From Rhynchopus sp. YZ270_cl-10 (taxonomy: Eukaryota), in the NCBI GenBank assembly GCA_964035575.1, contig OZ037835.1, forward strand, positions 1,116,001 to 1,180,000: a stretch of 64,000 nt of DNA. The letters are read 5' to 3'. The position numbers and the translations under genes were made by a program. The notes beneath the pieces are model-generated. The model saw only the letters and a list, made by a program, of their open reading frames with translations. It was not told the DNA's origin and did no database searches. Below are positions 6,433 through 64,000 of this stretch, piece after piece (position 1 is the first letter of the stretch; each line of letters opens with the position of its first letter).

Positions 6433-6879
6433 GTCTTTGTTGTGGTTTTGTGTTCTGATCTCTGTGTGTGGTGGGGTGTGGAGGACAACAAGCCTGCAGT
6501 CCTTTTCAACAACCTTGCCAACAAACTGTGGGAAGACGGGAGTTCATAAGAGCAACGGGCAACAAAATCACCGCAGACATGCCTGCCCTTACCGACACTG
6601 CTGTACCGTCTCACAGGCACACTACCCACACCCACCCATCCTTGAAGACATCCTTCTTCCACGGACAGACAGCAGACCTGCACCAGCTCATCAGACTGCC
6701 CCATGCAGCATGCCACAGCTGGCATGGTGCTGGCAAAGGTGAATGCTGTAAGACACCTGTTCAGCGTCAGGGGACTGCCCTGGTGCGCAGCTCTGCAGAG
6801 GACACTACGCAAGCTGTGGACATCGTGCATGCGTTTGAACGCACTGCGCCCACAGTGAAGGTGACGTCAGAAGCATGTA

Positions 6880-14365: not shown

Positions 14366-15321
14366 AGTAATAGGAGAAAACCAGATATCGGCGCAAAATC
14401 CTAAACCCCCCACAAATGTACCTGCGCCAATATCAGTGCAAAGGGTAATCAATTTATTTCACTTTGTATAACTTGTAGCATGCCTGCCTTGTAGATCTTC
14501 CAGTGTGATCATAGCTATGTTATGGAGAGAAACTAGGCTTCACACTTCGTAGAGCATCAGCCAACTGTAGACTTGAGTACGGTGTTGTAAGTCTGTACAT
14601 AGAGACAGTTCAGAAAGGCACCGGAATGTCCCCAGATAGAGCAGGAATAAAAGCATACAGTGTGTCGTGAGGTAGTACAGAATCATTTTGCTGGGATCAT
14701 CTTCGGATATTGTTTCTCTTCTTTTTTTTTTGTTGTTGATTTATATAATGTGGAATTTTTAATGTTAGATTATTGGCGCAGATTTTTAGTTCAGATTTTG
14801 GCGCAGATTTTTGGGTATGATTTTGGAATAAGTCCCTCATTCTCCTCAATCTCCTCAAACTGTCCACTTAACGATTGAGGAGATTGAGGAGATTGAGGAG
14901 TGCACGTTTCCACAACCACCCAGGAGGTAGTGCACTTGGAGCGTTAGTCATTATTTTACGTGGCGTTCCCCTGTAGGCCTATACCACGGGTTCTCTTGAA
15001 CCACAATTACCGTAATGGTTACTTTAGGAGAGAAAGTGTATATTCCTGTCTGGGTGTGGGTGTGGGTGTGGTGTTGTATGGTGGATGAGGAGCAATACAG
15101 AAGAAAAAAATACACGTAGGTCTCAACTTTTTTTTACCCTCCGATTGTTTTTTGTTTTCTTTTCTTTTTTTTGTTGCATCGACAATCACCCTTTCAAAAG
15201 ACAGGGTTCTGTGCACAATGTCAGTTTTTATTTTTCTACTCGTATCTACTGTACTTTTTCCCCCCGATGTGCGAGCACAACTACACTACTTTATGTCCAC
15301 TACCTATAAAAAAAAACACAC

Positions 15322-17145
15322 CAAAACAAAACAAAACAAAACAAAACAAAACAAAACAAAACAAAACAAAACAAAACAAAACAAAACAAAACAAAACAAA
15401 ACAAAACAAAACAAAACAAAACAAAACAAAACAAAACAAAACAAAACAAAACAAAACAAAACAAAACAAAACAAAACAAAACAAAACAAAACAAAACAAA
15501 ACAAAACAAAACAAAACAAAACAAAACAAAACAAAACAAAACAAAACAAAACAAAACAAAACAAAACAAAACAAAACAAAACAAAACAAAACAAAACAAA
15601 ACAAAACAAAACAAAACAAAACAAAACAAAACAAAACAAAACAAAACAAAACAAAACAAAACAAAACAAAACAAAACAAAACAAAACAAAACAAAACAAA
15701 ACAAAACAAAACAAAACAAAACAAAACAAAACAAAACAAAACAAAACAAAACAAAACAAAACAAAACAAAACAAAACAAAACAAAACAAAACAAAACAAA
15801 ACAAAACAAAACAAAACAAAACAAAACAAAACAAAACAAAACAAAACAAAACAAAACAAAACAAAACAAAACAAAACAAAACAAAACAAAACAAAACAAA
15901 ACAAAACAAAACAAAACAAAACAAAACAAAACAAAACAAAACAAAACAAAACAAAACAAAACAAAACAAAACAAAACAAAACAAAACAAAACAAAACAAA
16001 ACAAAACAAAACAAAACAAAACAAAACAAAACAAAACAAAACAAAACAAAACAAAACAAAACAAAACAAAACAAAACAAAACAAAACAAAACAAAACAAA
16101 ACAAAACAAAACAAAACAAAACAAAACAAAACAAAACAAAACAAAACAAAACAAAACAAAACAAAACAAAACAAAACAAAACAAAACAAAACAAAACAAA
16201 ACAAAACAAAACAAAACAAAACAAAACAAAACAAAACAAAACAAAACAAAACAAAACAAAACAAAACAAAACAAAACAAAACAAAACAAAACAAAACAAA
16301 ACAAAACAAAACAAAACAAAACAAAACAAAACAAAACAAAACAAAACAAAACAAAACAAAACAAAACAAAACAAAACAAAACAAAACAAAACAAAACAAA
16401 ACAAAACAAAACAAAACAAAACAAAACAAAACAAAACAAAACAAAACAAAACAAAACAAAACAAAACAAAACAAAACAAAACAAAACAAAACAAAACAAA
16501 ACAAAACAAAACAAAACAAAACAAAACAAAACAAAACAAAACAAAACAAAACAAAACAAAACAAAACAAAACAAAACAAAACAAAACAAAACAAAACAAA
16601 ACAAAACAAAACAAAACAAAACAAAACAAAACAAAACAAAACAAAACAAAACAAAACAAAACAAAACAAAACAAAACAAAACAAAACAAAACAAAACAAA
16701 ACAAAACAAAACAAAACAAAACAAAACAAAACAAAACAAAACAAAACAAAACAAAACAAAACAAAACAAAACAAAACAAAACAAAACAAAACAAAACAAA
16801 ACAAAACAAAACAAAACAAAACAAAACAAAACAAAACAAAACAAAACAAAACAAAACAAAACAAAACAAAACAAAACAAAACAAAACAAAACAAAACAAA
16901 ACAAAACAAAACAAAACAAAACAAAACAAAACAAAACAAAACAAAACAAAACAAAACAAAACAAAACAAAACAAAACAAAACAAAACAAAACAAAACAAA
17001 ACAAAACAAAACAAAACAAAACAAAACAAAACAAAACAAAACAAAACAAAACAAAACAAAACAAAACAAAACAAAACAAAACAAAACAAAACAAAACAAA
17101 ACAAAACAAAACAAAACAAAACAAAACAAAACAAAACAAAACAAA
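15322..17145 (+). repeat. Perfect (AAAAC)n microsatellite, ~1.8 kb
   Basis: Uninterrupted pentamer repeat. Confidence 0.98.
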
Positions 17146-24977: not shown

Positions 24978-27900
24978 CTAGAGTTTGCTCGGATCAGCAT
25001 CTTTCTCAATTGCATCCGACTTCGGCTTTGGCGATGATGAAGGAAACTCACACTTCGGGATCTCACGCTTCAGGATCTCGGCACGGATACATGCCATCAT
25101 CTGCACGAACCAGAGTCTGTTCTTAGGGCTCAGTAGGCTCACTCCGTAGTCCTCACCAGGTTTCAACGCATCCATCGGGACGTACTCGACCTGTCAAAAC
25201 AAAGAGGAAGTATAGGAAGTATACAATAAAAAAATAATATTCACGACAGAATTGAACTCTGTGAAGTAAGAATAAAAGCTTTTCTTAAGCGTTGAGGACA
25301 ACCTGCGTCTAAACCTTTTGATTCGTGAAGCACAAAGGCTTCGATCGACACGGCGACAGATCTCCACCCGTGGGGTAGAGTAATTTTGTTGATACGGGGG
25401 GGGGGGGGGGTAGGTGGGGGCAAAACCCCTATTTTTTTGAGGCATTTCGATTTTTTTGGATTTACGTGCAAAGTACCCGCAAACCACCGAAAATTTCGGG
25501 TCAGAGATGGTTTTGGGGTGTGGTTTGGGGGTGTTCTATAGGTGAGACACCCCAGAGATACAAAAAAATGGAAAAAAATAGCAAAAATAGACCATTTTGG
25601 CCGTTTGGGCCATTTTGGTCAAAATGGCCATTTTTGACCAATATTTCAAAAAAAAAAGCAAAAATTTGTCATCATTAGGCCTGTCTGGGCACAAATATGC
25701 CCCAAAAATGTCCCGCGAGTCCATTCCGACCTGTTTTGAACACATTTATCGCCTTTTTTGGTGTTTTTTTGGTGTTTTGAGGTCAAAAAAGATCCCCTGA
25801 CTATCCCCTGGCAGCCCTGGGCCGCGACTTGCGCCCTGCTTTTGGACCCCCTCTGGGCCAAAAAATGGGTGAAAACCCTCGAAAAAGCACTCCGGGGACC
25901 CAGATAGTTCCATATATCCACCAGAAACCCACCCAAACACCTCAAAAACATGCCAGAAAAATATTTTCAAAAACACACTTTTTTCAAAAAGTTCATCTGG
26001 GCAGGTTCCATAATGACTTATTTGAAAAAGTGTGTTTTTGAAAATGTTTTTCTGACATGTTTTTGAGGTGTTTTTGAGGGTGTGCGGTGGAAATTTGGAA
26101 CTATCTGGGCTCCCAGAGTGCTTTTTCGGAGGTTTTCGCCCATTTTTTGGCCCAGAGTGGGTCTAAAAGCAGGGCGCAAGTCGCGGCCCAGGGCTGCCAG
26201 GGGATAGTCAGGGGATCTTTTTTGACCTCAAAACACCAAAAAAACACCAAAACAAGTGCCTAAAGTGTCCAAAACAGGTCGGAATGGACTCACAGGACAT
26301 TTTTGGGGTAGTTTTGTGCCCAAGCAGCTGTCATGATGTCGAAATTTTGCTGTTTTTTTGATTTTTTTCTCAAAAAATGGCCATTTTACCCAACATGGCC
26401 AAAACCGTCAAAAGCCACTTTTTCACTATTTTTTTTGCATTTTTTCATATGGGTCGATTTCAAACCCCCCCCCCCCCCCCCCCAAAAGTTCTTTTTTGTC
26501 TTTTTCATGATATAGGCAGTTTTTTTGCAGTCTGAGGTCCGGAACCGCCCCAAAAACGATTTTCTGGGAGGTTTTGGGTGGTTTTGGGGCGAAATGGACC
26601 TTTTTTGACCATTTTTATGGTATTTTTAGGCTGTTTTTGGCCCTTCTTCTTACACAGCCTATTGGGGGTCAAAATAGCTATTTTTGACCAAAAAACACAA
26701 TTTATTTGACGCCAGGAGGCCTCCGTTGGCCCAAATATATCCCAAAAATGGGCTGTGAGCCCAATCCGACCTGTTTTGGGCACATTTGGCACTTTTCTTG
26801 GTGCTTATTTGATGTTTTTTGGTCAAAAATAGCTATTTTGACCCCCAATAGGCTGTGTAAGAAGAAGGGCCAAAAACAGCCTAAAAATACCATAAAAATG
26901 GTCAAAAAAGGTCCATTTCGCCCCAAAACCACCCAAAACCTCCCAGAAAATCGTTTTTGGGGCGGTTCCGGACCTCAGACTGCAAAAAAACTGCCTATAT
27001 CATGAAAAAGACAAAAAAGAACTTTTGGGGGGGGGGGGGGTTTTGAAATCGACCCATATTCTGAGGTGCCCTAATCATGGATTTTCGGGTCTCAGGGTGT
27101 TTCTGACCCATTTCTGGGGGGTATGAGGGGTGTTGACAGGTTTTTTGCTCACAAAACCACTTTTTCCAAAAATGCCTCACCCGTCCTGAAGGTTTTGCCC
27201 CCCCTAGGCATACTGTGCAGGCGAGCCGTTTTTAGGCGAGTTTTTCGTTTTCCTGATTTTCAGGAAAAACTCGCCAAAAACTCGCCCTACTCGCCCATTA
27301 CTCGCCTATTACTCGCCAAAACTCGCCAAAAACTCGCCAAAACTCGCCAAAAACTCGCCTAAACTCGCCTAAACTCGCCCACATTTGGGTGCAAATCCTG
27401 GTGCACATACGCACCTTGGGGGTGAAAATGTGCACCAGGATGTGAAAATGGAGGGCGGGGGTGACTGATGACAACATGCCACTCGAAAACACACAAAAAA
27501 ATTGAAAATGTGTCACTTGTACGTCTAACGGCAACCATGTCACGGCAGTGGCTGACAGGTATGTATGTAAACATTTGCTCCAGGGGAAGATCCAGGCGTG
27601 CCATAGATCCCGGGTGACAAGACGTGCTACAATCCGGAGGATGACGAAGACATGAGCCGGGGCTACACTCGCTATACAACAATGTCCTCGCCATGCCGGT
27701 AAATGGCAACCCTGCAGGCCACCCCTTGGCGGTATTCCCCACGACTACATCGCACCCATCTGTGCAAGCTTCATGGATCCGCAGAAGCTAACTGGTGGTA
27801 CTGGTTGTGGAAGCCTACAAAGCAAACTGTAGAGGTCTTGTTCAAGTGGAACGAAAAAAATTTTCTCTTCAAAACTCAAATTTCCCTCATATTTTCGTGT

Positions 27901-32007: not shown

Positions 32008-34640
32008 TTCTAGAAAACACTTGTGTTTTCTAGTTTTTAACCCCCTGCGCGTGGTTTAAAAAACTCCCCCTAAGTCACCCCCCCCTCCCTGGTGGATCCG
32101 ACCAAAATCGACCAAAAATCGGTTTTTTTTTCAGGGTGTAGAAGCTTCGCCCAGCTCAAAAAACTGTTTCTTTGGAAAGATCGGACACTTTTTGGGGGGT
32201 GTATAGGCTCAGCGAAGCGTTAAACCGTTAGAGACCCTGACACCAGGGTGTCACGAGTACCCCTTTTATACACGTGTATCTTAAGGCTTCTACAGGGTTC
32301 TACAGGCAAAACAGGCGTTTTGGCCAAAAACCCCGTTTTTCAGGCAGGTAAACGTGTTTGTATCCCTCAGGGTACACTTTATACCCTCCCTTACGCAAAA
32401 ATTATTCCCTATAGGGTGTAAAATTTACCCACTTTATCTCCCTCCTGCTCACTTTATCTCCCCAGGGAGATAAAGTGAGCAGGAGGGAGATAAAGTGAGC
32501 AGGAGGGAGATAAAGTGAGCAGCAGGGAGATAATAGCTATTTCCCTCCCTCCGTCCGGCGCCCTAGGGATTCACGAGTGCGGAAGAAAAATGCCCGAGGG
32601 CCGAAGGCCCGAGGGCGTTTTTTTTACGCACGAGTGGATCCCGAGGGCCCGGGGAGGGAGGGATGAGGCTTTCCCTCCCGCGGGTGAGGGTTTCCGACCC
32701 TTAAAATACAAAAAAATGCCATTTTACAGCCTGTAAAGTAAAAGCCCGGTGCAATCACTTTACAGGCTGTAAAGTATCGTATCAATAAATATGTGATGCT
32801 CAAAACATCAAAATTTTTCGGTTTTTCGCATTTTTGGGCTGGTCTGCGACCAAAAAAAAAAATTTTTTTTGGCTGAAAAATGTCTTTGCCAAAAAAAATT
32901 TTTTTTGGGAAAGTAAAAATCCCGCCGACTTTACTTTCCCGATCCCGCCGGGAGGGAAAGTGAGCAGGAGGGAGATAAAGTGACCAAAAATTTTTTTTTG
33001 GCAAAGACAAATTTCAGGTGAAAAAAAAAATTTTTTTGGGCTCAGATTGGCCCAAAAATGCAAAAAAACGAAAAATTTTGATGTTTTGAGCATCACATAT
33101 TTATTTCCTGGCCATTTTGTGAATAAAATACCCCCCCTGTACAGTTTGTATGGGCCAGCACCTTAGCAAAAAATCGAAAAATCTCAAAAAAAAAATTTTT
33201 TTTTTCGAGAAAATTTCGACCCTTGACCTGGGTTTTTGGGCACCAAAAAATGCAAAAAAACGCAAAAATCGGGTGTTTTGACCATCTGTGGTTACACAAA
33301 ACACACTTCTGTGTACAAGCGCACACCAATACAGTGGTTATACAAGGCGATTTTTGACCAAAAAAAAAAATTTTTTTTTCGCCCAAAATTTGCCGTGGTA
33401 CCTCATAAAATGGCCCAAAGAATCCAATGAAAACCTCAGATTGGGCAATAGCTATTTCCCTCCCTCCGTCCGGCGCCCTAGGGATTCACGAGTGCGGAAG
33501 AAAAATGCCCGAGGGCCGAAGGCCCGAGGGCGTTTTTTTTACGCACGAGTGGATCCCGAGGGCCCGGGGAGGGAGGGATGAGGCTTTCCCTCCCGCGGGT
33601 GAGGGTTTCCGACCCTTAAAATACAAAAAAATGCCATTTTACAGCCTGTAAAGTAAAAGCCCGGTGCAATCACTTTACAGGCTGTAAAGTATCGTATCAA
33701 TAAATATGTGATGCTCAAAACATCAAAATTTTTCGGTTTTTCGCATTTTTGGGCTGGTCTGCGACCAAAAAAAAATTTTTTTTTTGGCTGAAAAATGTCT
33801 TTGCCAAAAAAAAATTTTTTTGGGAAAGTAAAAATCCCGCCGACTTTACTTTCCCGATCCCGCCGGGAGGGAAATTATGAAAAAAATTTTCAACTCAAAT
33901 TTTCAACCAAAATACGGTCAAAAGTCGCCCAATAGGCTCGCTTCGCTCGCCTATTGAGCTCATTCTGTGGGTTAGGGTCCGGTTTTTTTTCTCGTTTTCC
34001 CGTTTTTTTTTGAAAAATTGCCAAAAAATCAAAAATAATACCCAAAAAGTCACAAAATTCTGAAATTTTGAATTTTTCCCTGATTTTTTTCAGAAATTTC
34101 AAGAAAAATGACAAGGATTCTGGTCTACAGTAGCCTGTATAAGAGACCCTACATAGGGCCTTATAAGCCATTTTTTTTGCTTCGGGAGGTCAAAAGTGCA
34201 CCCTTTGGGATACAAAATTACATATTTACCCCCGGTGAGTTCACTTTATCTCCCCTCGGGAGCCAATATTTCCCCTCGGGCCCTACGGGCCCTCGGGGAA
34301 ATATTGGCTCCCTCGGGGGAGATAAAGTGACTCCCCGGGGGTAGAATAAATAACTATTGCGGCTTGGGAAACGTGCCAGCGCGGTGTGAGAACCATGCAT
34401 GGACCACACACGGCACGAGTTGCAGCAGCCCACCGAAGGTGGGCTGCGTTTGGTACCCACTCGTTACGGTTAACGCGTGTATCGCTTGCAACCGTTGTGT
34501 GCATGTGTAGACGCAAACGGGTTGCCCGCACAACAGAGACGAGCCCTAGTCCACCGAAGGTGGGCTGCGGTTTTTAAGCACTGGTTGGGTTGGTTGCGTT
34601 GCATCCGTACGTACGGAGTGCTTGAGTTGAGTTGCACGAG
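32008..34640 (+). mobile_element. Family B element head (its central minisatellite and nested inserts appear to run to the window end)
   Basis: Hairpin TTCTAGAAAACAC-TT-GTGTTTTCTAG. Body matches 47841-48330. Interrupted at 32361 and resumes at ~34357. Confidence 0.75.
32361..34356. mobile_element. Composite DNA-transposon insertion (TA...TA ends, probable 3-bp TTG TSD)
   Basis: Flanks GTTTG|TATCCC and TAACTA|TTGCGG versus empty GTTTGCGG at ~48217. Internal GGAGATAAAGTGAGCAG repeats in both orientations. ~430-bp direct duplication at 32532-32960 and 33447-33872. Confidence 0.6.
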
Positions 34641-36106
34641 TCCGGTTCGTTACGTTGCGTTCCGTTCGTTGCGTTCCGTTCGGTGCGTTCCGTTCGTTGC
34701 GTTCAGATCGCAACGTACAGATCGGTTCCGTTCGGTGCGTTCCGTTGGTTGCGTTCAGATCGTTGCGTTCAGATCGCAACGTACAGATCGGTTCCGTTCG
34801 GTGCGTTCCGTTGGTTGCGTTCCGTTCGTTGCGTTCCGTTCGTTGCGTTCCGTTCGTTGCGTTCAGATCGCAACGTACAGATCGGTTCCGTTCGGTGCGT
34901 TCAGATCGTTGCGTTCCGTTCGTTGCGTTCAGATCGCAACGTACAGATCGGTTCCGTTCGGTGCGTTCCGTTGGTTGCGTTCCGTTCGTTGCGTTCCGTT
35001 CGTTGCGTTCAGATCGCAACGTACAGATCGGTTCCGTTCTGTTCGTTGCGTTCCGTTCGGTGCGTTCCGTTCGTTGCGTTCAGGTCGTTGCGTTCAGATC
35101 GCAACGTACAGATCGGTACCGTTCTGTTCGTTCCGTTCGTTGCGTTCAGATCGCAACGTACAGATCGGCACCGTTCTGTTCGTTCCGTTCGTTGCGTTCC
35201 GTTCGGTGCGTTCCGTTCGTTGCGTTCAGATCGCAACGTACAGATCGGCACCGTTCTGTTCGTTCCGTTCGTTGCGTTCCGTTCGGTGCGTTCCGTTCGT
35301 TGCGTTCAGGTCGTTGCGTTCAGATCGCAACGTACAGATCGGTACCGTTCTGTTCGTTCCGTTCGTTGCGTTCAGATCGCAACGTACAGATCGGTAACGT
35401 TTACTTTCTCTTTGGGTCATAAGGTACGCCCTTCTCTGACCACGACATGAAACACAAAGCCAAAACAATTGATCACCGGAAAGGTCCTGTATGTCCGTTC
35501 GGTGCGTTCCGTTCGTTGCGTTCAGATCGCAACGTACAGATCGGTTCCGTTCGGTGCGTTCAGATCGTTCCGTTCCGTTCGGTGCGTTCAGATCGTTGCG
35601 TTCCGTTCGGTGCGTTCCGTTCGTTGCGTTCCGTTCGGTGCGTTCCGTTCGTTGCGTTCAGATCGCAACGTACAGATCGGTTCCGTTCCGTTCGTTCCGT
35701 TCGGTGCGTTCCGTTCGGTGCGTTCAGATCGTTGCGTTCCGTTCGGTGCGTTCCGTTCGGTGCGTTCAGATCGCAACGTACAGATCGGTTCCGTTCCGTT
35801 CGTTCCGTTCGGTTCGTTCCGTTCGTTGCGTTCCGTTCGTTGCGTTCAGATCGTTGCGTTCCGTTCGGTGCGTTCAGATCGCAACGTACAGATCGGTTCC
35901 GTTCCGTTCGTTCCGTTCGGTTCGTTCCGTTCGTTGCGTTCCGTTAGTTGCGTTCAGATCGCAACGTACAGATCGGTTCCGTTCCGTTCGTTCCGTTCGG
36001 TTCGTTCCGTTCGTTGCGTTCCGTTCGTTGCGTTCAGATCGCAACGTACAGATCGGTTCCGTTCGGTGCGTTCCGTTCGTTGCGTTCAGATCGCAACGTA
36101 CAGATT
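34640..36106 (+). repeat. CGTT-rich modular minisatellite (core GTTCAGATCGCAACGTACAGATCGGTTCC), continuing at 57769-58856 and 59970-62290
   Basis: Directly visible; same unit in all three blocks. Confidence 0.95.
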
Positions 36107-36585
36107 GGTCCTGAGTATGACCTTAAACTGCTAAGTCGTGAGCGAATGTATCCTAGTAGGTATGGGGAAAGGGGAAGGAGTTCTTTGACCGCCCGAAGGC
36201 TTTGGCTGGGAAGGTATGGGGGGACTTCAGAACCTTTCTTGACCGCCCGTGGATGCATTCTCAAGGATTGGACATGGACACCCCTCCGTAGCGCAACGTC
36301 CCGCTGACTTAGGGTGAGGCAATGTATTGTGGCCCCAAAGTCAGTGCAAAAAGACCCTAGGCTCACCTTTGGAAACTGCATGTGTCTACCTGGTGCATGT
36401 GGACAAACTTCTGGAGACGGGCAGGTTGACGGCGACTACTACGGTAGATCTTTCCAGAAACCGTTGATGCGGCCACCCGGACATGATGACACACAACACA
36501 CGTTTACTTTCTCTTTGGGTCATAAGGTACGCCCTTCTCTGACCACGACATGAAACACAAAGCCAAAACAATTGATCACCGGAAA

Positions 36586-36730
36586 GGGGTTTATACACAT
36601 TACACAACACCACGTGCCACCCTGTTTTTACTTATTTACTTTTTACCACCTCACCCCTTTTATACCTACCGCAGTCGCCTCCCCGTGGCAACCCTGGACG
36701 GTCAAGAAGAGTGACCGACTAAGAACTGCG
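36586..36730 (+). ncRNA. HDV-like self-cleaving ribozyme fold in the LINE 5'UTR
   Basis: P1 GGGGUU (36586-91)/AACCCU (36690-95); P2 CGCAGU/ACUGCG; P3 GCC/GGC; L3 UCCCCGU; P1.1 CC/GG; P4 CGGUCA/UGACCG; J4/2 ACUAAG with C36719; ~78-nt J1/2. Confidence 0.8.
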
Positions 36731-36909
36731 ATCAGGAGAAACAGGGTCTTCTAACATTACTTTATTTTTATTTTTATTTTAAGTGTAATACCTATTATAC
36801 TTTTGCCTGCTATTCGCTTTTGACCTGGTAAGTCTGCTTTTGTTTCCTTTCCCCCCTTCAACAACCTCCGCACGCCCACCTACCCTTTGCTAATCCCACC
36901 CCCCACAAC

Positions 36910-38439
36910 ATGACCTCACCGGATCACGCCATGGACGTAGATGCAGAGACGCAGCCGGCACCCTCCCTCACGCTCCGGAACCCGGCGGCAACGCCAGCAG
37001 CCGCGGCACGGCTAGCGGAAGCAGAAGGCTTCCTGCTGGAAGTGTCGCGGTCGGCGCATGACGCGCACGAGTGGGAGAAGAACGCAGACGAGAAGGCGAG
37101 GCAAGTCCTCTCGCAACACCGTATGTCAGTCTCCCCCCTCACCCTCAAAAGAAGAGAACCCTCCTCTCAACATATTTTTAAATTTTATTTTGAGGGAATC
37201 CCATCCCCCGAAGCCCCCATACTATCTTTCTCCGGTGTGAACGGGGTGTTCATACGCCCCGCCCGCACCAACTCAAATGACGGACTTACGTCGGTCATTT
37301 GGCCAGAAGCGTCCTACGACGAAACGCTGGAGCACTCGGAAAGAGTACAGGGGAGGGTGGTAATGGGTAGATTAGGGGATTTCGGGATCGTTGTCCCAAA
37401 AAAGGACGAAGTGAAGGCATGGGAAACAGTGGGAAAGGCGGAAAGGGCAGGGGAGGCAAGCTACAGGCTCACCGGCTTACCCACCACGTGCACACCCGAG
37501 GACCTAGTGTCGGCAATTTCCCAAACGGGACGCCACATCAGAGGGAGAAGCACTCGCAGGGAAACAGCACCCGGGGGCACACACACACACACACTCCTGG
37601 TCGCAATGCATGCACAACCACCACCCCCACCCTCCTTCACATTTGGGGAGCATGTGATCGTCTGCACACCAGCGATCCATGCAAAATTCCCCCCACACAA
37701 AAAAAACACGACCTCACAGACACAAAAAGGAGGAAAGGGGAGGGGGAGAGGAAAGGGCTACCAAAGCCCAGGAGCAAAGGGTCAGGGCGGGGGCAGGGGA
37801 GGAGCAAAGAGCGGGGAAGGGGGGAAGCAGGCACACAGTGCATCCCTCCCAATGGGAGTAGGGCTCGGCCAGAATGCAACGTCCCCCAAAACGGTGGGAG
37901 GCGATGGGAACGAGAACATGGGTGGAAAGGGAAGCGGGAAGGGGAACAAGGGAGGCAAGGGAAAGGGGAGCGTACCAGCGACCGGACCCTCAGTTTGGGA
38001 CGCGAGGTTTTCCGATTTGGAAAAGAGAGTGGAAGCTCTCTCTACAAATCAGGAAAACCTCGCGTCACAATTGAGGGTGGGCTTAGCCGAAGGCTTCGAA
38101 CAAATCAGCCAAGGGTTATCGCTAAGCCTAGAAAAGCTCCTCCCCAAGAGCACAAGACCCGGAAAGAAAGGCGGTGCAAAACTAAGTGTCGACACCAACA
38201 TCGGCACAGAAGACGACGAAGAAATGACAGAAGGCAAAACGCCTTCGTCAAAGACACCGCTACCGTCTGGATCCCCCAGGAAAACGCCCAAAGGGAAAAG
38301 GGCGAGGGTGGGAGAGGAGCACGCGCGGAACACGTCCGCCAAGACTGGGGACAGCTCCCCCACAGCCCGGACGATACCGGGGGGGATAACGGTGCGGTCG
38401 CCGCGGTCCAGCAACAAGGGGATCAAACTCGTCGTGTAG
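36910..38439 (+). CDS. LINE ORF1 (gag-like nucleic-acid chaperone by position), 509 aa
   Basis: Intact ORF upstream of ORF2 with G/K-rich region and coiled-coil-like segment (FSDLEKRVEALSTNQENLASQL). No CCHC knuckle seen. Confidence 0.8.
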   Translation: MTSPDHAMDVDAETQPAPSLTLRNPAATPAAAARLAEAEGFLLEVSRSAHDAHEWEKNADEKARQVLSQHRMSVSPLTLKRREPSSQHIFKFYFEGIPSPEAPILSFSGVNGVFIRPARTNSNDGLTSVIWPEASYDETLEHSERVQGRVVMGRLGDFGIVVPKKDEVKAWETVGKAERAGEASYRLTGLPTTCTPEDLVSAISQTGRHIRGRSTRRETAPGGTHTHTLLVAMHAQPPPPPSFTFGEHVIVCTPAIHAKFPPHKKNTTSQTQKGGKGRGRGKGYQSPGAKGQGGGRGGAKSGEGGKQAHSASLPMGVGLGQNATSPKTVGGDGNENMGGKGSGKGNKGGKGKGSVPATGPSVWDARFSDLEKRVEALSTNQENLASQLRVGLAEGFEQISQGLSLSLEKLLPKSTRPGKKGGAKLSVDTNIGTEDDEEMTEGKTPSSKTPLPSGSPRKTPKGKRARVGEEHARNTSAKTGDSSPTARTIPGGITVRSPRSSNKGIKLVV

Positions 38440-38834: not shown

Positions 38835-38903
38835 CGCCACCTCCTACACCTGAGACGTCTACTTCTCCTGAGGTGCGGCGACGTAGAGCAGAACCCCGGA
38901 CCA
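38835..38903 (+). other. 2A-like ribosomal skipping (StopGo) peptide
   Basis: RHLLHLRRLLLLRCGDVEQNPG|P matches the DxExNPGP consensus and lies immediately before the APE domain. Confidence 0.9.
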
Positions 38904-41726
38904 GAGGAAGCCCTGAAGCTGATCAGCTTCAACTGCAACGGGCTGACCGAGCAACGGGAAGAGGAGCTGCAGGAGTTACTGAACTCGGAGCACTTCGATG
39001 TGGTGGCTCTGCAGGAGCTGAAGGAGGCGCAGACAGCACTGCCCGCGTTCCCGGGCTACACCCCCTTCCTCCGGAAGCGCACGCAACGCCGCACCCCCAA
39101 TGGCAGCCTGTACTCCGGAGGCGGCATAGCCACGCTGGTGCACACAAGCCACCAAGCCTCCCTCACCTGGGCCAGCGGGGAGCCAAGTGTGACGGAGCGT
39201 CTTGACGTGAGGGTGACGACGGAGCATCGGGAGTACACGGTGACGAACCTGTACCGACCTGGAGGTGTAGGCAGCAGCGCTGATGACCTGCGTGTGGACG
39301 ACTTCTCTGCAGATGACCTCCCCTCCGACGAAGACTCCATCATCCTCGGTGACTTCAACGTCCACCACCCTGCGTGGGACCTCCAAGCGAAGCCAGATGC
39401 CAAAGGGTCACAGCTACACCAGTGGTCGCTGCGCAACGCCATGCAGGTGCTCAACTGCCCCAACACAGTCACGCGCTTCTCCGGAACAGTCTTCTCCTCA
39501 CCGGACATCACCTTGGTACACAGGAACGTAGAAGCCACATGGACCACACTTTGCGCACGAGGCTCCGACCACCTCCCCATCCTAGTCACAGTGCAACCTC
39601 CGACGGAAGGGGAGGAAGTGAACGGAGGCGACGAAGACGCGACAGTGCCCGAACACCTGCTGAGATGGTGCTGGTCACGTGCGGATTGGGAGGCGTACAC
39701 GGCAGAGCTGGAGCGTTACGCCCCCAAGGCCCACAACTGGGGTGGTGTAGATGCGGTGAACAGGTTCACGGGATTGTGCAAAAACATCGCAGAAAAACAC
39801 ATCCCACTCTCCCACCACACCTCCACACCAAGGGTCAGGAAGTCGTGGTTCACTCCTCAGGTCCATGAATTGCTGCAAGAACGCAACGCAGTGACGGAAC
39901 TACTTCTCTCCGCGGACGAGACGGAACGCGACGTCCAAGCCGAAAAGCTGAAAGAGCTGAAGGTCGCCACCTCCTGTGCCATCATGGATGCGAAGCAGCA
40001 GGCATGGGTGCGTAGCTGCAACGCCGCCACACCACCACCTCTCAGCAGCACTTTCCGGAGGTTGAAGGAGCTCAGTGGTGACCGGGTGAAACCCATCACC
40101 AAAGCAGTCGCTACCCCGGAGGGCCCTCTGACGAACACACCGCAGGAAAAAGCGAACACCCTGGCCCGCTACTTCGCCGCAGTGAGTGGAGACGGCACGC
40201 CCCCTTCTCTCGCCAACCCGCAGCGTACTGCTAGGCGCAACAACACACAGAGCGCGGGCTACACCGGAGCGGCAAGCGAAGCTCCCTTCACCTTGCCGGA
40301 GCTCGATTACGCGATGAGCTCGCTGAAGCTGGGCAAAGCACCTGGGCTGGACGAGATGCACAACGAGCTCTTGCTGCATCTTGGGCCCAAAGGACGAGAC
40401 GCCTTACTCCACGTCCTCAACTTATCCTGGTGCAAAGGTGAACTCCCTACATCGTGGCTGCAGAGCAACATCGTGCCCATCGCTAAGAACGGGAAGGACG
40501 CCAGCATCCCCGCGTCGTACCGCCCCATCTCTCTTACGAGCAACGTCTGCAAACTCTTGGAGAAGATGGTCAAGTGCCGCATCACCCAGATGCAAGACAG
40601 TCCGGACCTGCCGCAGTACAGGGGCCCACACCGCACACAAGCAGGTTTCCGCCGTCGTCTCTCCACGATAGACCAGCTCGCGGCGCTCATGCAGCGGGTG
40701 AATGCGGGGAAGAACCGCCCCACCATCGCACTCTTCTTCGACGTAGAAAAGGCGTTCGACACTGTGTCTCGCAAGCGCATACTCCAGGCGCTGAAGCACA
40801 AGCAGCACCTGCCACCACGCTACCTCAACTGGATTGAAGCCTTCACCAGTGACCGCTCCGCCTGTGTTTCAGTGGATGGAGCAAAGAGTGCGCAGTACGT
40901 GATGAGAGCTGGAGTACCGCAGGGTACAGTACTGTCACCCCTCCTTTTCCTCGCTGCTATGGACGAAGTTGCGGAAGCGCTCGACGACCTCAGTGCAACA
41001 TATCCCACATTCTTCGCCGACGACATGGCAGTCACCGTGCAAGGGGAAACATTAGGGGAAGTGCAAGAATTGGCGCAAGCGGTCATCAACCGTGTCACAG
41101 CGGCGATGGAGCCACTCGGAATGCGCCTCTCCAGCACAAAGACCGTCTTCACCTTCTTCGGCACAAGAAACGTCCTCAACAAGTACCCGTTAGCGGCCGA
41201 CACAGAACTTTGGCTGAGGAACGGTATTCGGGTGCCCTACTCCGCCACACCCAAATACCTGGGATTGACGCTGGATCCGTCCTTGACGATGGAGGCACAC
41301 ACCACCGCAGTCATCACCAGGGTGCAAAAAAGGCTCGGTCTGATGAAGATGTTGTCTGGAACCACGTGGGGAGCTAACACACACACCCTCCGCACCACCT
41401 ATCTCACATACGTACTTCCCCTGATCCGCTATGCTCTTGGCATATACGGTCCACAGCTGTCAACACACCTGATGGACAAGCTGGAGGCCGAACACAACGC
41501 CGCGGCGCGTATCATCACCGGATGTCCTTTGCCTACGTCTCGCGCCAAATTGCTGTGGGAGGCACGCCTGACCCCGATAGTGGACCTGATGCGATTGGAC
41601 GCCGTAACTGCGTTCGAGTTGTTTCGGCGTCACACCGACACGCCAGGGAAAGCGGCCTGCGGCTACACCTCCGCCTCCCTCACGCTCAACAACTGGCTCT
41701 CCGCCGCCCAGCGACTCTCCTCCGAG

Positions 41727-42134
41727 CAGTGCTACCAACGCGACAAGTCGCGCGCGACTCGCGACAAACCACCCGCGACAGCGCGACAAAATGAGTTGTC
41801 GCAAAAATCGAAAATTTTTTTTTTCCATTTTGAGACACTTTTTTTTTTTTTTTTGTTAGGAAAAATCGCGTTTTTTCCGGGTACTTAGCAAAATTTTGGT
41901 CAAAAAATGATGGCTTTTGCTTACGTCGCTACTGTACCGTCTGCGATGGTTTTTTCTGGATTTTTTTTTTTGGATTTTTTTTTCCAAAATCGCCCACACC
42001 CAAAAAAAAAAATTTTTTTTTTTTTTGGTGAAAATTTTTGTGATGTCGAAAAAAAAAATTTTTTTTGGGCGCGACAGCGCGACAAGTGGCACTTTGTCGC
42101 GCGACTAGAATCTCTTGTCGCGTTGGTAGCACTG
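41727..42134. mobile_element. 408-bp MITE, 21-bp perfect TIR CAGTGCTACCAACGCGACAAG, 7-bp TSD CTCCGAG
   Basis: TSD at 41720-41726 and 42135-42141. Empty site present in the minus-strand LINE at ~52028. Confidence 0.93.
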
Positions 42135-43784
42135 CTCCGAGGCACACAAGGAGTTCCGCAGACCTGGGGTGCATATGGCAGATATGCAGCGTCACCTGCC
42201 TGTAGACCCGTGGTATTGGAGTGACGTACTGCCCCGCCTAAGTATCACCGCCACGATACCTGGGATACGCCGCTCCGACCCTGAGCCAGATGACGAAAAA
42301 TTCCTGCTCCTCACAGAGGAGGCCCTCCAACGCCTTCCCCCCTGCGAATGGCACGCCTACACCGACGGCTCTGTCCAGGGCAAAAGCGGGGGTGCTGGGG
42401 TAGTGCTGTACAAGCTCCCCGAGATGCGAGAACCCAACTGCTCCTTCTCCTACGGGGCCGGCACCGGCGCAAGCAGCTTTCAAGCCGAAATGATCGCCAT
42501 AGGCCACTCCATTGACCTTCTCTTTGACAAAGCAACCCCTGGGGCCACCTGCGCCATCCTCACAGACTCGCAATCGTCCCTGCGTGCGCTAGAGAGCGGT
42601 CCCAAGAAGGCCAGAGAGGACTTCGAACACAAACTCTGGAAAGGACTACACCGGCTTGCCGGCAACAACATAAACCTAATACTGCACTACGTCCCCTCGC
42701 ATGTGCAGGTCCTGGGCAATGATGCTGCTGACGCTGCGGCCGCAGAAGGCACCAAGATGGTGCAGAGCCCTGGCCTGTCCTTCTCTGCCGCCAGATCATG
42801 TGCGAGACGTCACCTGGCGAACACCCCTTCCGTCGAGCAGCCCGGCACGAACACGGTGTACGCCAGGAAGGCCGGAGCGGACGTAGCGGTGCTGCAACCT
42901 CCCGTCCACTGCACGGACCTCACCCGCAGGGGGGAAACCACCATCCGCAGCCTCCGAGCTGGCAGCAACCAGCTAACGTTCGACTTCCGCACCTCGTCGA
43001 ACACTGCCACATGCCTGCGATGCGACAAGCCCTGCACCCTGAAGCACCTGTTCTTCTCCTGCCGACAAACGTGTAGCGAAAGCCTCCCGGACCTCCATAC
43101 CCTCCTCATGCGAGAGCCGGCGACCGCCCTGAAGTACCTCGTCAGCGAGAGTTTCCTGCCTGGCCCGCTTGAGGAGTACCTCCGTAACGGTAGTTAGTCG
43201 TGACTGAGTTGTTGTTGATTAATATTATTATGTTCTGTGTTTAATCTTGTGTCATAGGCTGCAGTACGACTTACGTCGCGCTGCTAGCCCCTGACAACAA
43301 GCGTGTTATTCATGTCCCCCTATTTACAACGGGTATTTTGTTGCTTTTCTGCTGTCTTTCCCCACATGTTACCCAATCAAAAGCCTTTCGTTCGCTCATT
43401 CAGCGTTCCCCCTACCCATTTTTCCACATCTCTACCACACTTCTCACACCGTAGAAATCCCTGATGCATAATTCTCTCTCGCTATTGAAGCCCCAGGTCC
43501 CTCCGCACTCGAAGTACGCCCAGAGAGGCGTACTCCACATTTTACCCAGCGGACGCTTCTTTATGCACCTAGTTATCCCCTTTTTATGCCGCCACTCCCT
43601 ACACTCTCTGTACCACAGCACAATGTATTTACCGCTCTTTTGGAGGTCAACAGTCGTTAAACACAAGTAGATTAGGAGCATCTGACTGTACATTAATCAA
43701 TTAAAGCAAACTATACATGTGCGGACGGAGGTGTACCACACATCTACCCTACGAATGCTCTTCCCGTGCCCCAATTCCCCCCTA

Positions 43785-45712
43785 TTTAGTTTTTTTTGGC
43801 AATCCTTAACACTCCTGGCTGGTGTGGTTGATAAACGCAACCGAACACAACGAAACGGATCCGCTCTATACGTTACGATCCGTATGCAACCAAAGCATGC
43901 AACGCAACGCAACCTATGTGTACGTAACGATCAGAACGCAACGAACGCAACGTAACGGATGCAACACAACCAACGCAACCTATGCGTACGTTGCGATCTG
44001 TTTATATCGATCTCAACATAACGAACACAACGCATGCAACGCAACGCAACCGATGTGTACGTAACGATCAGAACGCAACGAACGTAACGAAACGAACACA
44101 ACCAACGCAACGGATGCAACGCAACCTGTGTGTACGTTGCGTTCTGTATGCAACGCGTGCAACACAACGCAACCTATGCGTACGTTGCGATCTGTACATA
44201 TCGATCTCTACACAACGAACGCAACGCATGCAACGCAACGCAACCGATGTGTACGTAACGATCGGAACGCGTTTTCTGCCACGACAACCCCCAGACTCAG
44301 CCCCTGCCCGTGGCCCGATGTAGTACCCTAAGCACACCCGATTGCGGCACAGGCAAATGCGACGACAAGGGGAGGAGGGGTGGGGAGAGCGATGGGTACC
44401 TGAAGTGGAAGTTGCGCCTCTGCTGGGTGTCCGAGTCTCATAGGTAATAACACGAGCCACATGCCCCAAAAGTACGCCACCAACACCCCAACAAGGGCAA
44501 ATCGTGTACGCCGCCACAACACAAACCTACCTAAGAGATCAGGGCTCCTGGTGGGGGTTTGCGACTGCCACAGATGCCTGCCTCTCACTCTGCCCGCCCC
44601 CTCGCCCCTAAAGACACACAAACACACCAGTCACTGCATTTTGTTGATGTTAAAATCGATTGCGCCCTGGGTGCTATCTTGGGATATGAAAGGGGGAAAG
44701 CGTGTGATGGGGGCGAGCTGTGTGTACCCTATTTGCTGCCTTACGTTTCACTTTCCACACCGCCCCATATAAATACACACTAGTTATACTTACACAATGC
44801 ATATTCCCTTTTATTTTTTTTTTTTTTGAGTGACTTTTAAGCGTATACCTTTGGCTAAGCACGCCACGACACCGCTTACATTACTGCGCGCACCACTCCA
44901 TTTGTATTTTCCAGTTTTAGGGGAGGTATCCTCGCGTACGAGTTGTTTGACTCCAAAGTGATTCCCCGGCCTCTCAAGCAAGCAGGAGACCAACGTCAGG
45001 GGAGGTGTAATGAGATACCCTGGGCCGTGCCCACCTTTTGTGTTCTGTTCATTTTGTTTGAGTGGTGCGCCCACCTTGCTTTTTGTTCATTGTGTACTAA
45101 CCTATCGCAATAAAAAGACCACTAAAGGCCAAAGAGAAAAAAAAAAAAAAAACGCAACGAACGTAACCAACCGAACACAACCAACGCAACGCAACCGCTC
45201 CGTACGTTGCGCTCTGTACGTAACCATCTCTACACAACGAACGCAACGTATGCAACACAACGTAACCGGTGTGCTCGTAGCGATGTGTACGCAACGTAGC
45301 GAAGGCAACGCAACCAACGCAACGAGTGGTTACAAACCCCCACGCATGGTTCTCACACCGCTCTGGCACGTTTCCCAAGCCGCAAACCCGGTTGCCTGCC
45401 TGAAAAACCGGGTTTTTGGCCAAAACGGCTGTTTTGCCTGTAGAACCCTGTAGAAGCCTTAAGAAACACGTGTAAAAAAGGGGTACTCGCGACACCCTGG
45501 TTTCAGGGTCTGTCAGGGTTTGGAGGTCTTTGCTTCAGAGAAAGTCTCCTAAAAACCTCCTATCTTCCCAAGAATCCACTTTTTTGACCTCTTTGGACGT
45601 TTAGGGACCTGAAAAAAAATGGCCGAAACCCACCCTGGGGGGGGGGTGCCTTAGGGTGGGTGGGTGGGGTGGTGAAGCAACCTTAAAGACCTTAACACCG
45701 AGTGTTAAGGAA
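43785..45712 (-). mobile_element. Family A element in the LINE 3'UTR, itself containing a LINE 3' stub
   Basis: Same termini as 31267-32007, reversed. Empty site CCTA|TTTAATAC confirmed by ~50349-50362. Confidence 0.85.
44272..45152 (+). mobile_element. 5'-truncated LINE copy (~0.88 kb)
   Basis: Ends AATAAAAAGACCACTAAAGGCCAAAGAG(A)n. Short TSD AACGC; empty site at ~59400. Confidence 0.88.
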
Positions 45713-58108: not shown

Positions 58109-58856
58109 TTCCGTTCGGTGCGTTCCGTTCGTTGCGTTCCGTTCGGTGCGTTCCGTTCGTTGCGTTCAGATCGCAACGTACAGATCGGTTCCGTTCGGTG
58201 CGTTCAGATCGTTGCGTTCCGTTCGGTGCGTTCAGATCGTTGCGTTCCGTTCGGAGCGTTCCGTTCGTTGCGTTCAGATCGCAACGTACAGATCGGTTCC
58301 GTTCGGTGCGTTCCGTTCGTTGCGTTCCGTTCGGTGCGTTCCGTTCGTTGCGTTCAGATCGCAACGTACAGATCGGTTCCGTTCGGTGCGTTCAGATCGT
58401 TGCGTTCCGTTCGGTGCGTTCAGATCGTTGCGTTCCGTTCGGAGCGTTCCGTTCGTTGCGTTCCGTTCGGTGCGTTCCGTTCGTTGCGTTCAGATCGCAA
58501 CGTACAGATCGGTTCCGTTCGGTGCGTTCAGATCGTTGCGTTCCGTTCGGTGCGTTCCGTTCGTTGCGTTCAGATCGCAACGTACAGATCGGTTCCGTTC
58601 GGTGCGTTCAGATCGTTGCGTTCCGTTCGGTGCGTTCCGTTCGTTGCGTTCCGTTCGGTGCGTTCCGTTCGTTGCGTTCAGATCGCAACGTACAGATCGG
58701 TTCCGTTCGGTGCGTTCAGATCGTTGCGTTCCGTTCGGTGCGTTCCGTTCGTTGCGTTCAGATCGCAACGTACAGATCGGTTCCGTTCCGTTCGTTCCGT
58801 TCGGTTCGTTCCGTTCGGTGCGTTCCGTTCGTTGCGTTCAGATCGCAACGTACAGA

Positions 58857-62290: not shown

Positions 62291-64000
62291 GGTCCTGAGT
62301 ATGACCTTAAACTGCTAAGTCGTGAGCGAATGTATCCTAGTAGGTATGGGGAAAGGGGAAGGAGTTCTTTGACCGCCCGAAGGCTTTGGCTGGGAAGGTA
62401 TGGGGGGACTTCAGAACCTTTCTTGACCGCCCGTGGATGCATTCTCAAGGATTGGACATGGACACCCCTCCGTAGCGCAACGTCCCGCTGACTTAGGGTG
62501 AGGCAATGTATTGTGGCCCCAAAGTCAGTGCAAAAAGACCCTAGGCTCACCTTTGGAAACTGCATGTGTCTACCTGGTGCATGTGGACAAACTTCTGGAG
62601 ACGGGCAGGTTGACGGCGACTACTACGGTAGATCTTTCCAGAAACCGTTGATGCGGCCACCCGGACATGATGACACACAACACACGTTTACTTTCTCTTT
62701 GGGTCATAAGGTACGCCCTTCTCTGACCACGACATGAAACACAAAGCCAAAACAATTGATCACCGGAAAGGGGTTTATACACATTACACAACACCACGTG
62801 CCACCCTGTTTTTACTTATTTACTTTTTACCACCTCACCCCTTTTATACCTACCGCAGTCGCCTCCCCGTGGCAACCCTGGACGGTCAAGAAGAGTGACC
62901 GACTAAGAACTGCGATCAGGAGAAACAGGGTCTTCTAACATTACTTTATTTTTATTTTTATTTTTATTTTTATTTTAAGTGTAATACCTATTATACTTTT
63001 GCCTGCTATTCGCTTTTGACCTGGTAAGTCTGCTTTTGTTTCCTTTCCCCCCTTCAACAACCTCCGCACGCCCACCTACCCTTTGCTAATCCCACCCCCC
63101 ACAACATGACCTCACCGGATCACGCCATGGACGTAGATGCAGAGACGCAGCCGGCACCCTCCCTCACGCTCCGGAACCCGGCGGCAACGCCAGCAGCCGC
63201 GGCACGGCTAGCGGAAGCAGAAGGCTTCCTGCTGGAAGTGTCGCGGTCGGCGCATGACGCGCACGAGTGGGAGAAGAACGCAGACGAGAAGGCGAGGCAA
63301 GTCCTCTCGCAACACCGTATGTCAGTCTCCCCCCTCACCCTCAAAAGAAGAGAACCCTCCTCTCAACATATTTTTAAATTTTATTTTGAGGGAATCCCAT
63401 CCCCCGAAGCCCCCATACTATCTTTCTCCGGTGTGAACGGGGTGTTCATACGCCCCGCCCGCACCAACTCAAATGACGGACTTACGTCGGTCATTTGGCC
63501 AGAAGCGTCCTACGACGAAACGCTGGAGCACTCGGAAAGAGTACAGGGGAGGGTGGTAATGGGTAGATTAGGGGATTTCGGGATCGTTGTCCCAAAAAAG
63601 GACGAAGTGAAGGCATGGGAAACAGTGGGAAAGGCGGAAAGGGCAGGGGAGGCAAGCTACAGGCTCACCGGCTTACCCACCACGTGCACACCCGAGGACC
63701 TAGTGTCGGCAATTTCCCAAACGGGACGCCACATCAGAGGGAGAAGCACTCGCAGGGAAACAGCACCCGGGGGCACACACACACACACACTCCTGGTCGC
63801 AATGCATGCACAACCACCACCCCCACCCTCCTTCACATTTGGGGAGCATGTGATCGTCTGCACACCAGCGATCCATGCAAAATTCCCCCCACACAAAAAA
63901 AACACGACCTCACAGACACAAAAAGGAGGAAAGGGGAGGGGGAGAGGAAAGGGCTACCAAAGCCCAGGAGCAAAGGGTCAGGGCGGGGGCAGGGGAGGAG
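62291..64000 (+). mobile_element. Third LINE copy, 5' end (ribozyme fold 62770-62914; ORF1 from 63106, runs off the window)
   Basis: Appears identical to 36107-37804 except for a 12-nt longer TTTTTA repeat. Confidence 0.93.

What the first reader, a model, noticed from the sequence alone, without database searches (positions are those of the whole stretch)
35397..35493. Genomic insert joins the predicted ribozyme cleavage site to the element's first bases: trace of a circular or template-jumped leader RNA
Seen: inside the minisatellite lies an 86-nt exact copy of LINE 36500-36585 ending ...CCGGAAA, exactly at the predicted scissile bond. It is followed by GGTCCTG-TATG, which matches the LINE start GGTCCTGAGTATG minus 2 nt. 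There is no poly(A) and no TSD. Inference: this end-to-start junction is what would result if the cleaved leader (2',3'-cyclic phosphate end) were ligated into a ~479-nt circle and reverse-transcribed, or if RT jumped from the 5' end of one RNA onto the cleaved leader. Either way it independently supports in vivo cleavage and hints at a LINE-derived circular RNA. It is a single example with an 11-nt gapped match, and the GG is ambiguous with the ribozyme start.
Basis: partly seen in the sequence, partly recalled or inferred. Interest (0 to 1): 0.88.

Follow-up and report, generated by a model that had tools for sequence, protein, structure and literature searches.

The report
Self-cutting LINE with rejoined leader repeats
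A jumping gene, probably from a diplonemid protist, has a predicted self-cutting RNA 479 letters inside its front end, and the front piece is often found joined end-to-start, likely because the copying enzyme hops back onto the cut-off piece; a circular RNA is possible but not shown.

Summary
The 98-nt insert (35396-35493) is the last 86 nt of a 479-nt LINE leader, ending at the predicted scissile bond of an HDV-like ribozyme, followed by the leader's first bases lacking 2 nt.

It is not a one-off. Contigs of 2 of 5 runs laid (X2, X3, one study) hold the clean end-to-start junction, making up 42-44% of resolved leader ends. Leader depth is 2.1-2.5 times body depth in three runs, one of them probably Hi-C DNA. 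Leader-leader and leader-ribozyme junctions both occur with 3 and with 4 A; crossover alone cannot interconvert these four forms.

Best reading: an ingi-like LINE whose RNA cuts off its own leader, and whose reverse transcriptase likely re-attaches it by end-to-end jumps, building genomic leader tandems in register with the cut. The insert is probably a repair patch copied from such a junction, so it does not by itself indicate a circle. Against a circle: no ribozyme at the leader start, and weak folding (z +1.1). Cleavage, promoter activity and RNA forms are untested. New variant of a known kind.

The parts
35396..35493 (+). 98-nt insert in a satellite unit: one extra A, the last 86 nt of the leader, then the leader start with a 2-nt deletion; a fragment of a leader-leader (3-A) junction
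   Evidence: the clean junction is in contigs of X2 and X3
34648..36106 (+). satellite array of 52-136-nt modular units that holds the insert and precedes the LINE
36107..36585 (+). 479-nt leader; the unit of the end-to-start junctions; promoter role inferred, untested
   Evidence: a leader contig starts at 36107 or up to 5 unmatched letters before it in 4 of 4 runs; junction contigs
36477..36554 (+). C/D-box snoRNA-like stretch inside the leader (box C at 36483, box D at 36539); 73 of 78 nt shared with a separate low-depth contig
   Evidence: no Rfam hit
36586..36730 (+). predicted HDV-like ribozyme: P1 36586-91/36690-95 (6 bp, G1.U), P2 36670-76/36723-30, P3 36677-79/36687-89, L3 36680-86, P4 36699-704/36712-17, catalytic C 36719; long J1/2; cut predicted between 36585 and 36586
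   Evidence: activity untested
36653..36661 (+). J1/2 strand complementary to 36582-36590, across the scissile bond; possible attenuator
   Evidence: duplex -13.9 vs P1 -6.7 kcal/mol; not populated in the pseudoknot-free ensemble
36910..38439 (+). ORF1, 509 aa, no Pfam family
38853..43197 (+). ORF2 region: 2A-like motif at 38880, APE endonuclease, RT, RNase H; interrupted at about 41727-42131 by an inverted-repeat insertion
62291..64000 (+). second leader + ribozyme (G1 at 62770) + ORF1 start; same satellite junction, so a duplicate and not an independent insertion; its array lacks the insert
57852..58110 (-). three LINE 3' ends with poly(A) stacked head to tail (about 140, 10 and 36 nt): consistent with the RT restarting at RNA 3' ends

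Best explanation
The insert is a fragment of a common leader-to-leader junction of a young ingi-like LINE, whose RNA is predicted to cut itself 479 nt from its start and whose reverse transcriptase likely re-attaches the cut-off leader by jumping onto its 3' end. Step 1 (inferred): transcription starts at 36107 from a promoter in the leader. Step 2 (structure predicted, activity inferred): the HDV-like ribozyme cuts at 36585/36586, giving a free leader RNA and an mRNA that starts at G1. Step 3 (inferred): after copying the mRNA the RT jumps onto a leader 3' end, which restores a full element with 3 or 4 A at the seam; at the leader's 5' end it often jumps again. Step 4 (junctions shown in contigs, genomic state inferred): this yields head-to-tail leaders, about two per element. 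Some full-length copies may also come from uncut precursor. Step 5 (inferred): the insert itself is a templated repair patch at a break in the satellite, copied from such a junction in DNA or in a read-through RNA.
For: Direct end-to-start junction at depth 393 (X2) and 279 (X3); the same junction with one more A at 183 and 136. Leader-to-ribozyme with 3 A at 377/269 and with 4 A at 416/268. Leader-leader is therefore 42% and 44% of resolved ends. Leader:body depth is 2.2-2.4 (X2), 2.2-2.5 (X3) and 2.1 (X5). X5 shows GATC-GATC joints at 2 of the 5 GATC sites in the stretch, a proximity-ligation signature, so the leader excess is likely genomic. The unit runs exactly from the element's 5' boundary to the predicted scissile bond. 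A crossover inside the leader keeps the A-run linked to what follows, so four junction classes need repeated joining, or two independent slips at one 3-A run. One search lists only one other indel (37205, depth 34 of 2294) in 1213 nt, which hold 83 homopolymer runs. Stacked LINE 3' ends at 57852-58110 fit an RT that restarts at RNA ends. Precedent: R2 jumps onto U12 and tRNA upstream of its ribozyme (PMC3414825, section 8 read).
Against: The junction was seen in 2 of 5 runs laid, both of one study, and either may be the window's own source sample. It was not seen in X1 (one contig, 4-A leader-ribozyme form only), X5 (no cover at 36580-36784) or X7 (nothing laid). The kind of every run is not on record; DNA is inferred. 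Contig depth is no copy number, and the four classes account for only 52-57% of leader-end depth. Assembly drops simple bubbles, so the rarity of other indels is weak evidence. Both leader-bearing copies in the window have a single leader. No junction shows untemplated bases other than A. The leader-ribozyme join accounts for 74-80% of ribozyme depth, which uncut precursor would explain equally well. No relative with this layout was found among 80 distant loci, so there is no covariation support for the ribozyme.
Confidence: 0.52

Rival explanations
1. The cut leader is ligated at the RNA level, into a circle of about 479 nt or into linear multimers, by an RtcB- or Trl1-type ligase. The RT then transfers onto that RNA by homology and copies across the seam.
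For: HDV-like cleavage leaves a 2',3'-cyclic phosphate (PMC3185411, passages). RtcB joins such ends to L1 RNA before retrotransposition (PMC6789731, abstract) and circularises retrozyme monomers (PMC7229834, passages). 3-A and 4-A parents would give both seam types without new errors. The element has RNase H, which would free cDNA for strand transfer. If X2 and X3 were RNA libraries, the junction would be direct evidence.
Against: There is no hammerhead core or HDV-like P1 partner at the leader start or across the seam, so the 5' end would be capped or phosphorylated, not 5'-OH. Folding is no better than shuffles, linear (z +1.18) or circular (z +1.14; 35 of 40 shuffles as good), unlike highly self-paired retrozyme circles. 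The leader excess is also present in the likely-DNA run X5.
Confidence: 0.2
2. The leader is a captured cellular small RNA, for example a snoRNA-bearing transcript, whose own 3' end varies between 3 and 4 A. The RT jumps onto it, but its end owes nothing to the ribozyme, which may rarely cut.
For: A C/D-box-like 78-nt piece is shared with a separate low-depth contig. R2-U12 and L1-U6 chimeras are precedents. A possible attenuator helix spans the cut site.
Against: Only 78 of 479 nt were seen in another context, and no listed contig shows the leader's 3' end running into unrelated DNA (rows may be dropped). The two copies of the ribozyme core are intact and identical.
Confidence: 0.13
3. The leader is a promoter monomer as in mouse L1: one old duplication spread by unequal crossover, and copies move as uncut precursor RNA.
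For: Monomer arrays of 1.5-3.7 units on average are known in mouse L1 (PMC9022269, passages). GG is a 2-nt microhomology at both unit ends. Most ribozyme depth is joined to a leader.
Against: It does not explain why the unit ends at the predicted scissile bond and starts at the element boundary. It needs two independent A slips at one run, each rising to 32-52%.
Confidence: 0.12
4. The 11 nt after the copied stretch are chance repair filler, partly from a related satellite that holds a 7-nt match.
For: A 7-mer of the filler occurs many times in the related satellite, and 26% of 11-mers have some gapped match in the window.
Against: The chance at the leader start is 8e-5, and the ungapped junction is present at depth 279-393 in two runs.
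Confidence: 0.02

Closest known systems
L1Tc/ingi LINEs of trypanosomatids with the Pr77 promoter-ribozyme (PMC3185411, PMC4035085; passages read)
   Same: APE, RT, RNase H, 2A-like peptide before APE, poly(A) tail and an HDV-like ribozyme in the 5' region; a T. vivax protein is among the named homologues (29%) and has a similar 2A.
   Different: Pr77 cuts at +1 of the element and overlaps the promoter. Here the cut is predicted 479 nt inside, a separate ORF1 is present, and the upstream piece is repeated head to tail.
Drosophila ambigua R2 with a U12 snRNA 5' extension (PMC3414825, section 8 read)
   Same: A small-RNA-like extension upstream of a ribozyme that cuts at the old 5' end; template jump proposed; the authors could not explain how the extension is kept.
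   Different: One jump with a uniform seam, inside rDNA, with no tandem copies. Here there are four seam classes, leader-leader joins and dispersed insertion.
U6/L1 chimeras made by RtcB ligation (PMC6789731; abstract and outline read)
   Same: An RNA with a cyclic phosphate end joined upstream of LINE RNA, then retrotransposed.
   Different: The partner is a host snRNA joined to variably truncated L1; no ribozyme and no self-joining.
Mouse L1 5' monomer arrays (PMC9022269; passages read)
   Same: A variable number of head-to-tail units at the LINE 5' end.
   Different: No ribozyme between array and body in the passages read; Tf 5' ends cluster inside a monomer, whereas contigs here begin at the unit start.
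Non-LTR retrozymes (PMC7229834, passages; bioRxiv 10.64898/2026.07.22.740005, abstract)
   Same: Short genomic tandem repeats tied to a self-cleaving ribozyme and a retroelement.
   Different: Each retrozyme unit carries a hammerhead and gives a highly paired circle. Here the unit has no ribozyme, the single ribozyme lies downstream, and folding is ordinary.

Membership tests
L1Tc/ingi clade LINE | APE endonuclease, RT and RNase H in one ORF | tested here: met
   Pfam PF03372/PF14529, PF00078, PF00075; a 1260-aa cluster member ends in the same RNase H tail
L1Tc/ingi clade LINE | 2A-like peptide just upstream of APE | tested here: met
   motif at 38880; similar in the T. vivax protein P0011; feature per PMC3708506
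L1Tc/ingi clade LINE | HDV-like ribozyme cutting at +1 of the element (Pr77 position) | tested here: not met
   predicted cut is 479 nt inside the mobilised unit; no P1 partner in a ribozyme core for the leader start
L1Tc/ingi clade LINE | no separate ORF1 | tested here: not met
   509-aa ORF1 at 36910; PMC3708506 says Ingi-clade elements appear to lack ORF1
L1Tc/ingi clade LINE | RT phylogeny inside the clade | not tested
   no labelled reference set; only similarity ranks, so filed as ingi-like
HDV-like ribozyme | P1 of 6-7 bp, P2 of 5 bp or more, P3/L3, P1.1, catalytic C and A in J4/2 | tested here: met
   P1 of 6 or 7 bp and long J1/2 are normal in R2 (PMC3774820)
HDV-like ribozyme | match to a curated Rfam model | tested here: not met
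   no ribozyme family at E<=10 on 36090-36800; the long J1/2 may defeat the models
HDV-like ribozyme | covariation among homologues | tested here: inconclusive
   no homologous ribozyme in 80 distant loci or by pattern in metagenome contigs
HDV-like ribozyme | self-cleavage 5' of G1 | not testable with these tools
   needs an in vitro assay
Non-LTR retrozyme | a hammerhead ribozyme in every repeat unit | tested here: not met
   no hammerhead core on either strand of the leader or across its seam
Non-LTR retrozyme | highly self-paired monomer | tested here: not met
   z +1.18 linear, +1.14 circular
Non-LTR retrozyme | expressed circular RNA | not testable with these tools
   only contigs of unrecorded kind were available
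LINE 5' monomer array (mouse L1 type) | head-to-tail 5' units in genomic DNA | tested here: inconclusive
   junction contigs and depth ratio imply it; no long read or assembly with two full leaders was seen
LINE 5' monomer array (mouse L1 type) | promoter activity of the unit | not testable with these tools
   needs a reporter or cap mapping
Box C/D snoRNA (36477-36554) | box C near the 5' end and box D near the 3' end, about 70 nt apart overall | tested here: met
   boxes at 36483 and 36539; rough chance of both at the ends of the shared stretch 1e-4; box consensus recalled
Box C/D snoRNA (36477-36554) | guide complementary to rRNA or snRNA | not tested
   no rRNA of this organism was at hand; no Rfam snoRNA hit

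The most novel reading that the evidence does not exclude
A bipartite LINE. Its RNA splits itself into a promoter- and snoRNA-bearing leader and an mRNA, and most new full-length insertions are reassembled from the two pieces. The freed leader also closes into a 479-nt circle that templates tandem leader arrays: a LINE-derived circular RNA made with a single ribozyme.
Probability: 0.17. Interest if true: 0.92.

Novelty: new variant of a known kind. Interest (0 to 1): 0.72.

Why it matters
Ribozymes in LINEs are understood as trimming host sequence off the front of the element. Here the predicted cut would remove the element's own first 479 nt, yet that piece stays with the family and is over-represented. 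If the RT rejoins it, template jumping is a routine step of this element's cycle, not an accident. That gives a testable answer to the puzzle left open for the U12-extended R2 and a route by which 5' promoter arrays can grow. The A-run at the seam is a built-in marker for following it. It also bears on design of R2-type insertion tools, where 5' junction formation and jumping matter. A circular leader would add a new route to ribozyme-made circles.

Tried and rejected
No whole genome is held for the window, so arrays could not be counted in an assembly. No RNA holder listed. The leader 3' pattern found 0 matches in metagenome contigs. The RT alignment returned 80 loci of 21-37% identity; a relaxed HDV-like scan gave 3 AT-rich, unconvincing cores in 355 kb and blastn gave no leader or ribozyme match. 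Rfam found no ribozyme or snoRNA family over the leader. X7 laid no contig on the insert, and X5 has no cover at 36580-36784; neither shows absence.

Rejected: (1) A second ribozyme at the leader start. (2) Site-specific insertion into a leader array: 0 of 7 LINE poly(A) ends in the window are followed by leader (6, a seventh). (3) The second copy at 62291 as independent support: it shares the satellite junction and 158 nt of exact upstream sequence. (4) Telomerase RNA, considered from recall because of the C/D boxes; I saw no telomeric template by eye. (5) The attenuator helix as established: it is favoured as an isolated duplex but absent from the folded ensemble.

Literature: full-text searches listed no paper describing a LINE with tandem leaders upstream of an internal ribozyme, or a diplonemid LINE ribozyme; I judged most hits from listings only. 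The D. papillatum genome paper has 0 occurrences of 'ribozyme' in its main text; its supplements were not read. The survey of HDV-like ribozymes in non-LTR elements by Ruminski and colleagues (recalled) is not held and may describe internal ribozymes. Earlier scan notes held nothing for this place or sequence.

Full report
Observation. The insert lies in a satellite array (34648-36106) that ends at a LINE. Positions 35397-35484 are an exact copy of 36500-36587; the last GG is shared by the ribozyme start and the leader start. After it come 9 more letters, then satellite. Taking out 35396-35493 restores the common 52-nt unit, so this is a 98-nt insertion without TSD or poly(A). The 11 letters 35483-35493 match, with one 2-nt gap, only the two leader starts in the window. 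The chance at one named place is 8e-5, although 26% of 11-mers match somewhere.

The element. ORF2 has APE, RT and RNase H with a 2A-like motif before APE, as in L1Tc and ingi (PMC3708506, passages). The nearest named homologues are EukProt 'Rhum' transcripts at 38-40%, which I read from recall as Rhynchopus humris, a diplonemid, and a Trypanosoma vivax protein at 29%. The host is therefore probably a diplonemid. The family is young: 3129 nt of ORF2 are identical between two copies, and its protein cluster has 19 members. It has a separate 509-aa ORF1, a long 3' UTR and a poly(A) tail.

The ribozyme. A generic HDV-like descriptor finds G1 at 36586 and at 62770 only, against 0.017 hits per shuffled 7.7 kb (written after seeing the site). 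All helices and the catalytic C are in place. A 6-bp P1 and a long J1/2 are normal in R2 ribozymes (PMC3774820, passages). Rfam has no match and no homologue was found for covariation, so activity is predicted only. A J1/2 strand can pair across the scissile bond but is not populated in the folded ensemble.

The junction in other data. Thirteen runs were listed, none on record as RNA; I laid five. On 36088-37300, a leader contig starts at 36107, or up to 5 unmatched letters before it, in 4 of 4 runs, which fixes the 5' boundary. X2 and X3 hold a joint from 36585 back to 36107 with one A between, at depth 183 and 136. On the insert, the same runs hold the direct junction, continuing into the undeleted leader start, at depth 393 and 279. 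Leader-to-ribozyme joins occur with 3 A (377, 269) and 4 A (416, 268). Leader-leader joins are thus 42% and 44% of resolved ends. The four classes cover only 52% and 57% of leader-end depth. X1 has one contig, the 4-A leader-ribozyme form. X5 has no cover over the seam, and X7 laid nothing. Both positive runs are of one study and may include the window's source. The insert's own flanks were not in any contig.

DNA or RNA. The kind of run is not on record. Of the 4 listed loose ends peculiar to X5, 2 form GATC-GATC at GATC sites, which from established knowledge marks a Hi-C library. X5 has leader:body depth 2.1, like X2 (2.2-2.4) and X3 (2.2-2.5). X2 and X3 also show the satellite (X3), contigs up to 66 and 37 kb, no splice joint, and 74-80% of ribozyme depth attached to a leader. 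I infer they are DNA, with roughly 85% confidence. Depth is no copy number, but the ratios agree across three runs of two studies.

Mechanism. The repeat unit runs from the element's first base to the predicted scissile bond with no spacer, so it looks defined at the RNA level. A crossover inside the leader keeps the A-run tied to what follows it, so the four seam classes cannot be interconverted by recombination. They need repeated joining of leader ends, or two slips at one short run; one search lists one other, minor indel in 1213 nt, though assembly hides simple bubbles. End-to-end jumping needs no special 5' end and is documented for R2, including jumps onto U12 and tRNA upstream of the ribozyme (PMC3414825, section 8). 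Three LINE 3' ends stacked at 57852-58110 suggest that this RT restarts at RNA ends. Ligation is the main rival: RtcB joins cyclic-phosphate ends to L1 RNA (PMC6789731, abstract) and circularises retrozymes (PMC7229834, passages). But the leader start has no ribozyme to give a 5'-OH, and the leader folds no better than shuffles. A healing ligase acting on a decapped end (recalled for trypanosomes) would get round that. Nothing here shows a circle.

The insert itself. It has one extra base on the left, a 2-nt deletion, a 2-nt match to the satellite just beyond its right end, and no TSD or tail. It sits where the array changes unit type. This fits a templated patch at a break. With leader-leader junctions common, its template can be DNA or a linear transcript, so it is a sample of the junction class and not separate evidence for a circle.

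The leader's origin. Nucleotides 36477-36554 are shared (73 of 78) with a separate contig at about one twentieth of the leader's depth in X2 and X3, and are bracketed by C and D boxes. The leader may have captured a snoRNA. The guide was not tested.

Comparison and verdict. It works like an L1Tc/ingi element, but fails two membership features (ribozyme at +1, no ORF1). It resembles the U12-extended R2 and mouse L1 monomer arrays, and it is not a retrozyme. My searches listed no description of this layout; one relevant survey was not held. An earlier scan note on a Penelope partial tandem is a parallel case of a tandem without evidence for a circle; I did not test it. Verdict: real feature, new variant of a known kind. 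Template jumping 0.52, RNA ligation or circle 0.20, captured RNA with its own end 0.13, DNA-level array 0.12, chance 0.02. Interest 0.72.

Noticed in passing
window 36477-36554: C/D-box snoRNA-like stretch in the LINE leader, shared at 73/78 with a separate contig (4.0 kb in X2 and X3) that continues into a G-rich run; possible captured snoRNA or a sister element.
   Followed up: partly
window 57852-58110 (-): Three LINE 3' ends, each with poly(A), stacked head to tail inside the satellite.
   Followed up: partly
window 58858-59971 and 43789-45711: Elements with a T-rich start, short sub-terminal inverted repeats and a 3' hairpin, inserted at T-rich sites in the satellite and in the LINE 3' UTR; Helentron/HINE-like by recall.
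   Followed up: no
window 41727-42131: About 400-nt insertion with terminal inverted repeats and a 9-10-nt duplication, splitting RT from RNase H in the plus-strand LINE.
   Followed up: no
window 47321-48384: A 1.06-kb near-perfect palindrome (92%) between LINE fragments; smaller inverted-repeat elements at 10157-10337, 25888-26120 and 32428-32517.
   Followed up: no
window 55157-56206 (-): A 5'-truncated LINE 3' end inserted into another copy of the same LINE with a 6-7-nt target duplication.
   Followed up: partly
window 45712-46727: The LINE 3' UTR contains two diverged (about 69%) tandem copies of a unit of roughly 550 nt; the whole 3' UTR is about 3 kb.
   Followed up: no
window 36299-36378: By eye, a possible pseudoknot in the leader with an A-rich linker, and a short internal duplication at about 36157-36250.
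   Followed up: no
window 15308-17145: (AAAAC)n array of 368 copies at 99% match.
   Followed up: no
window 5521-6543 (-): ORF with a ubiquitin-like domain and BspA-type leucine-rich repeats.
   Followed up: no
window 37177 (contig of X1): The element end that interrupts the LINE at 47027 and 57107 in the window also interrupts ORF1 at 37177 in run X1.
   Followed up: no
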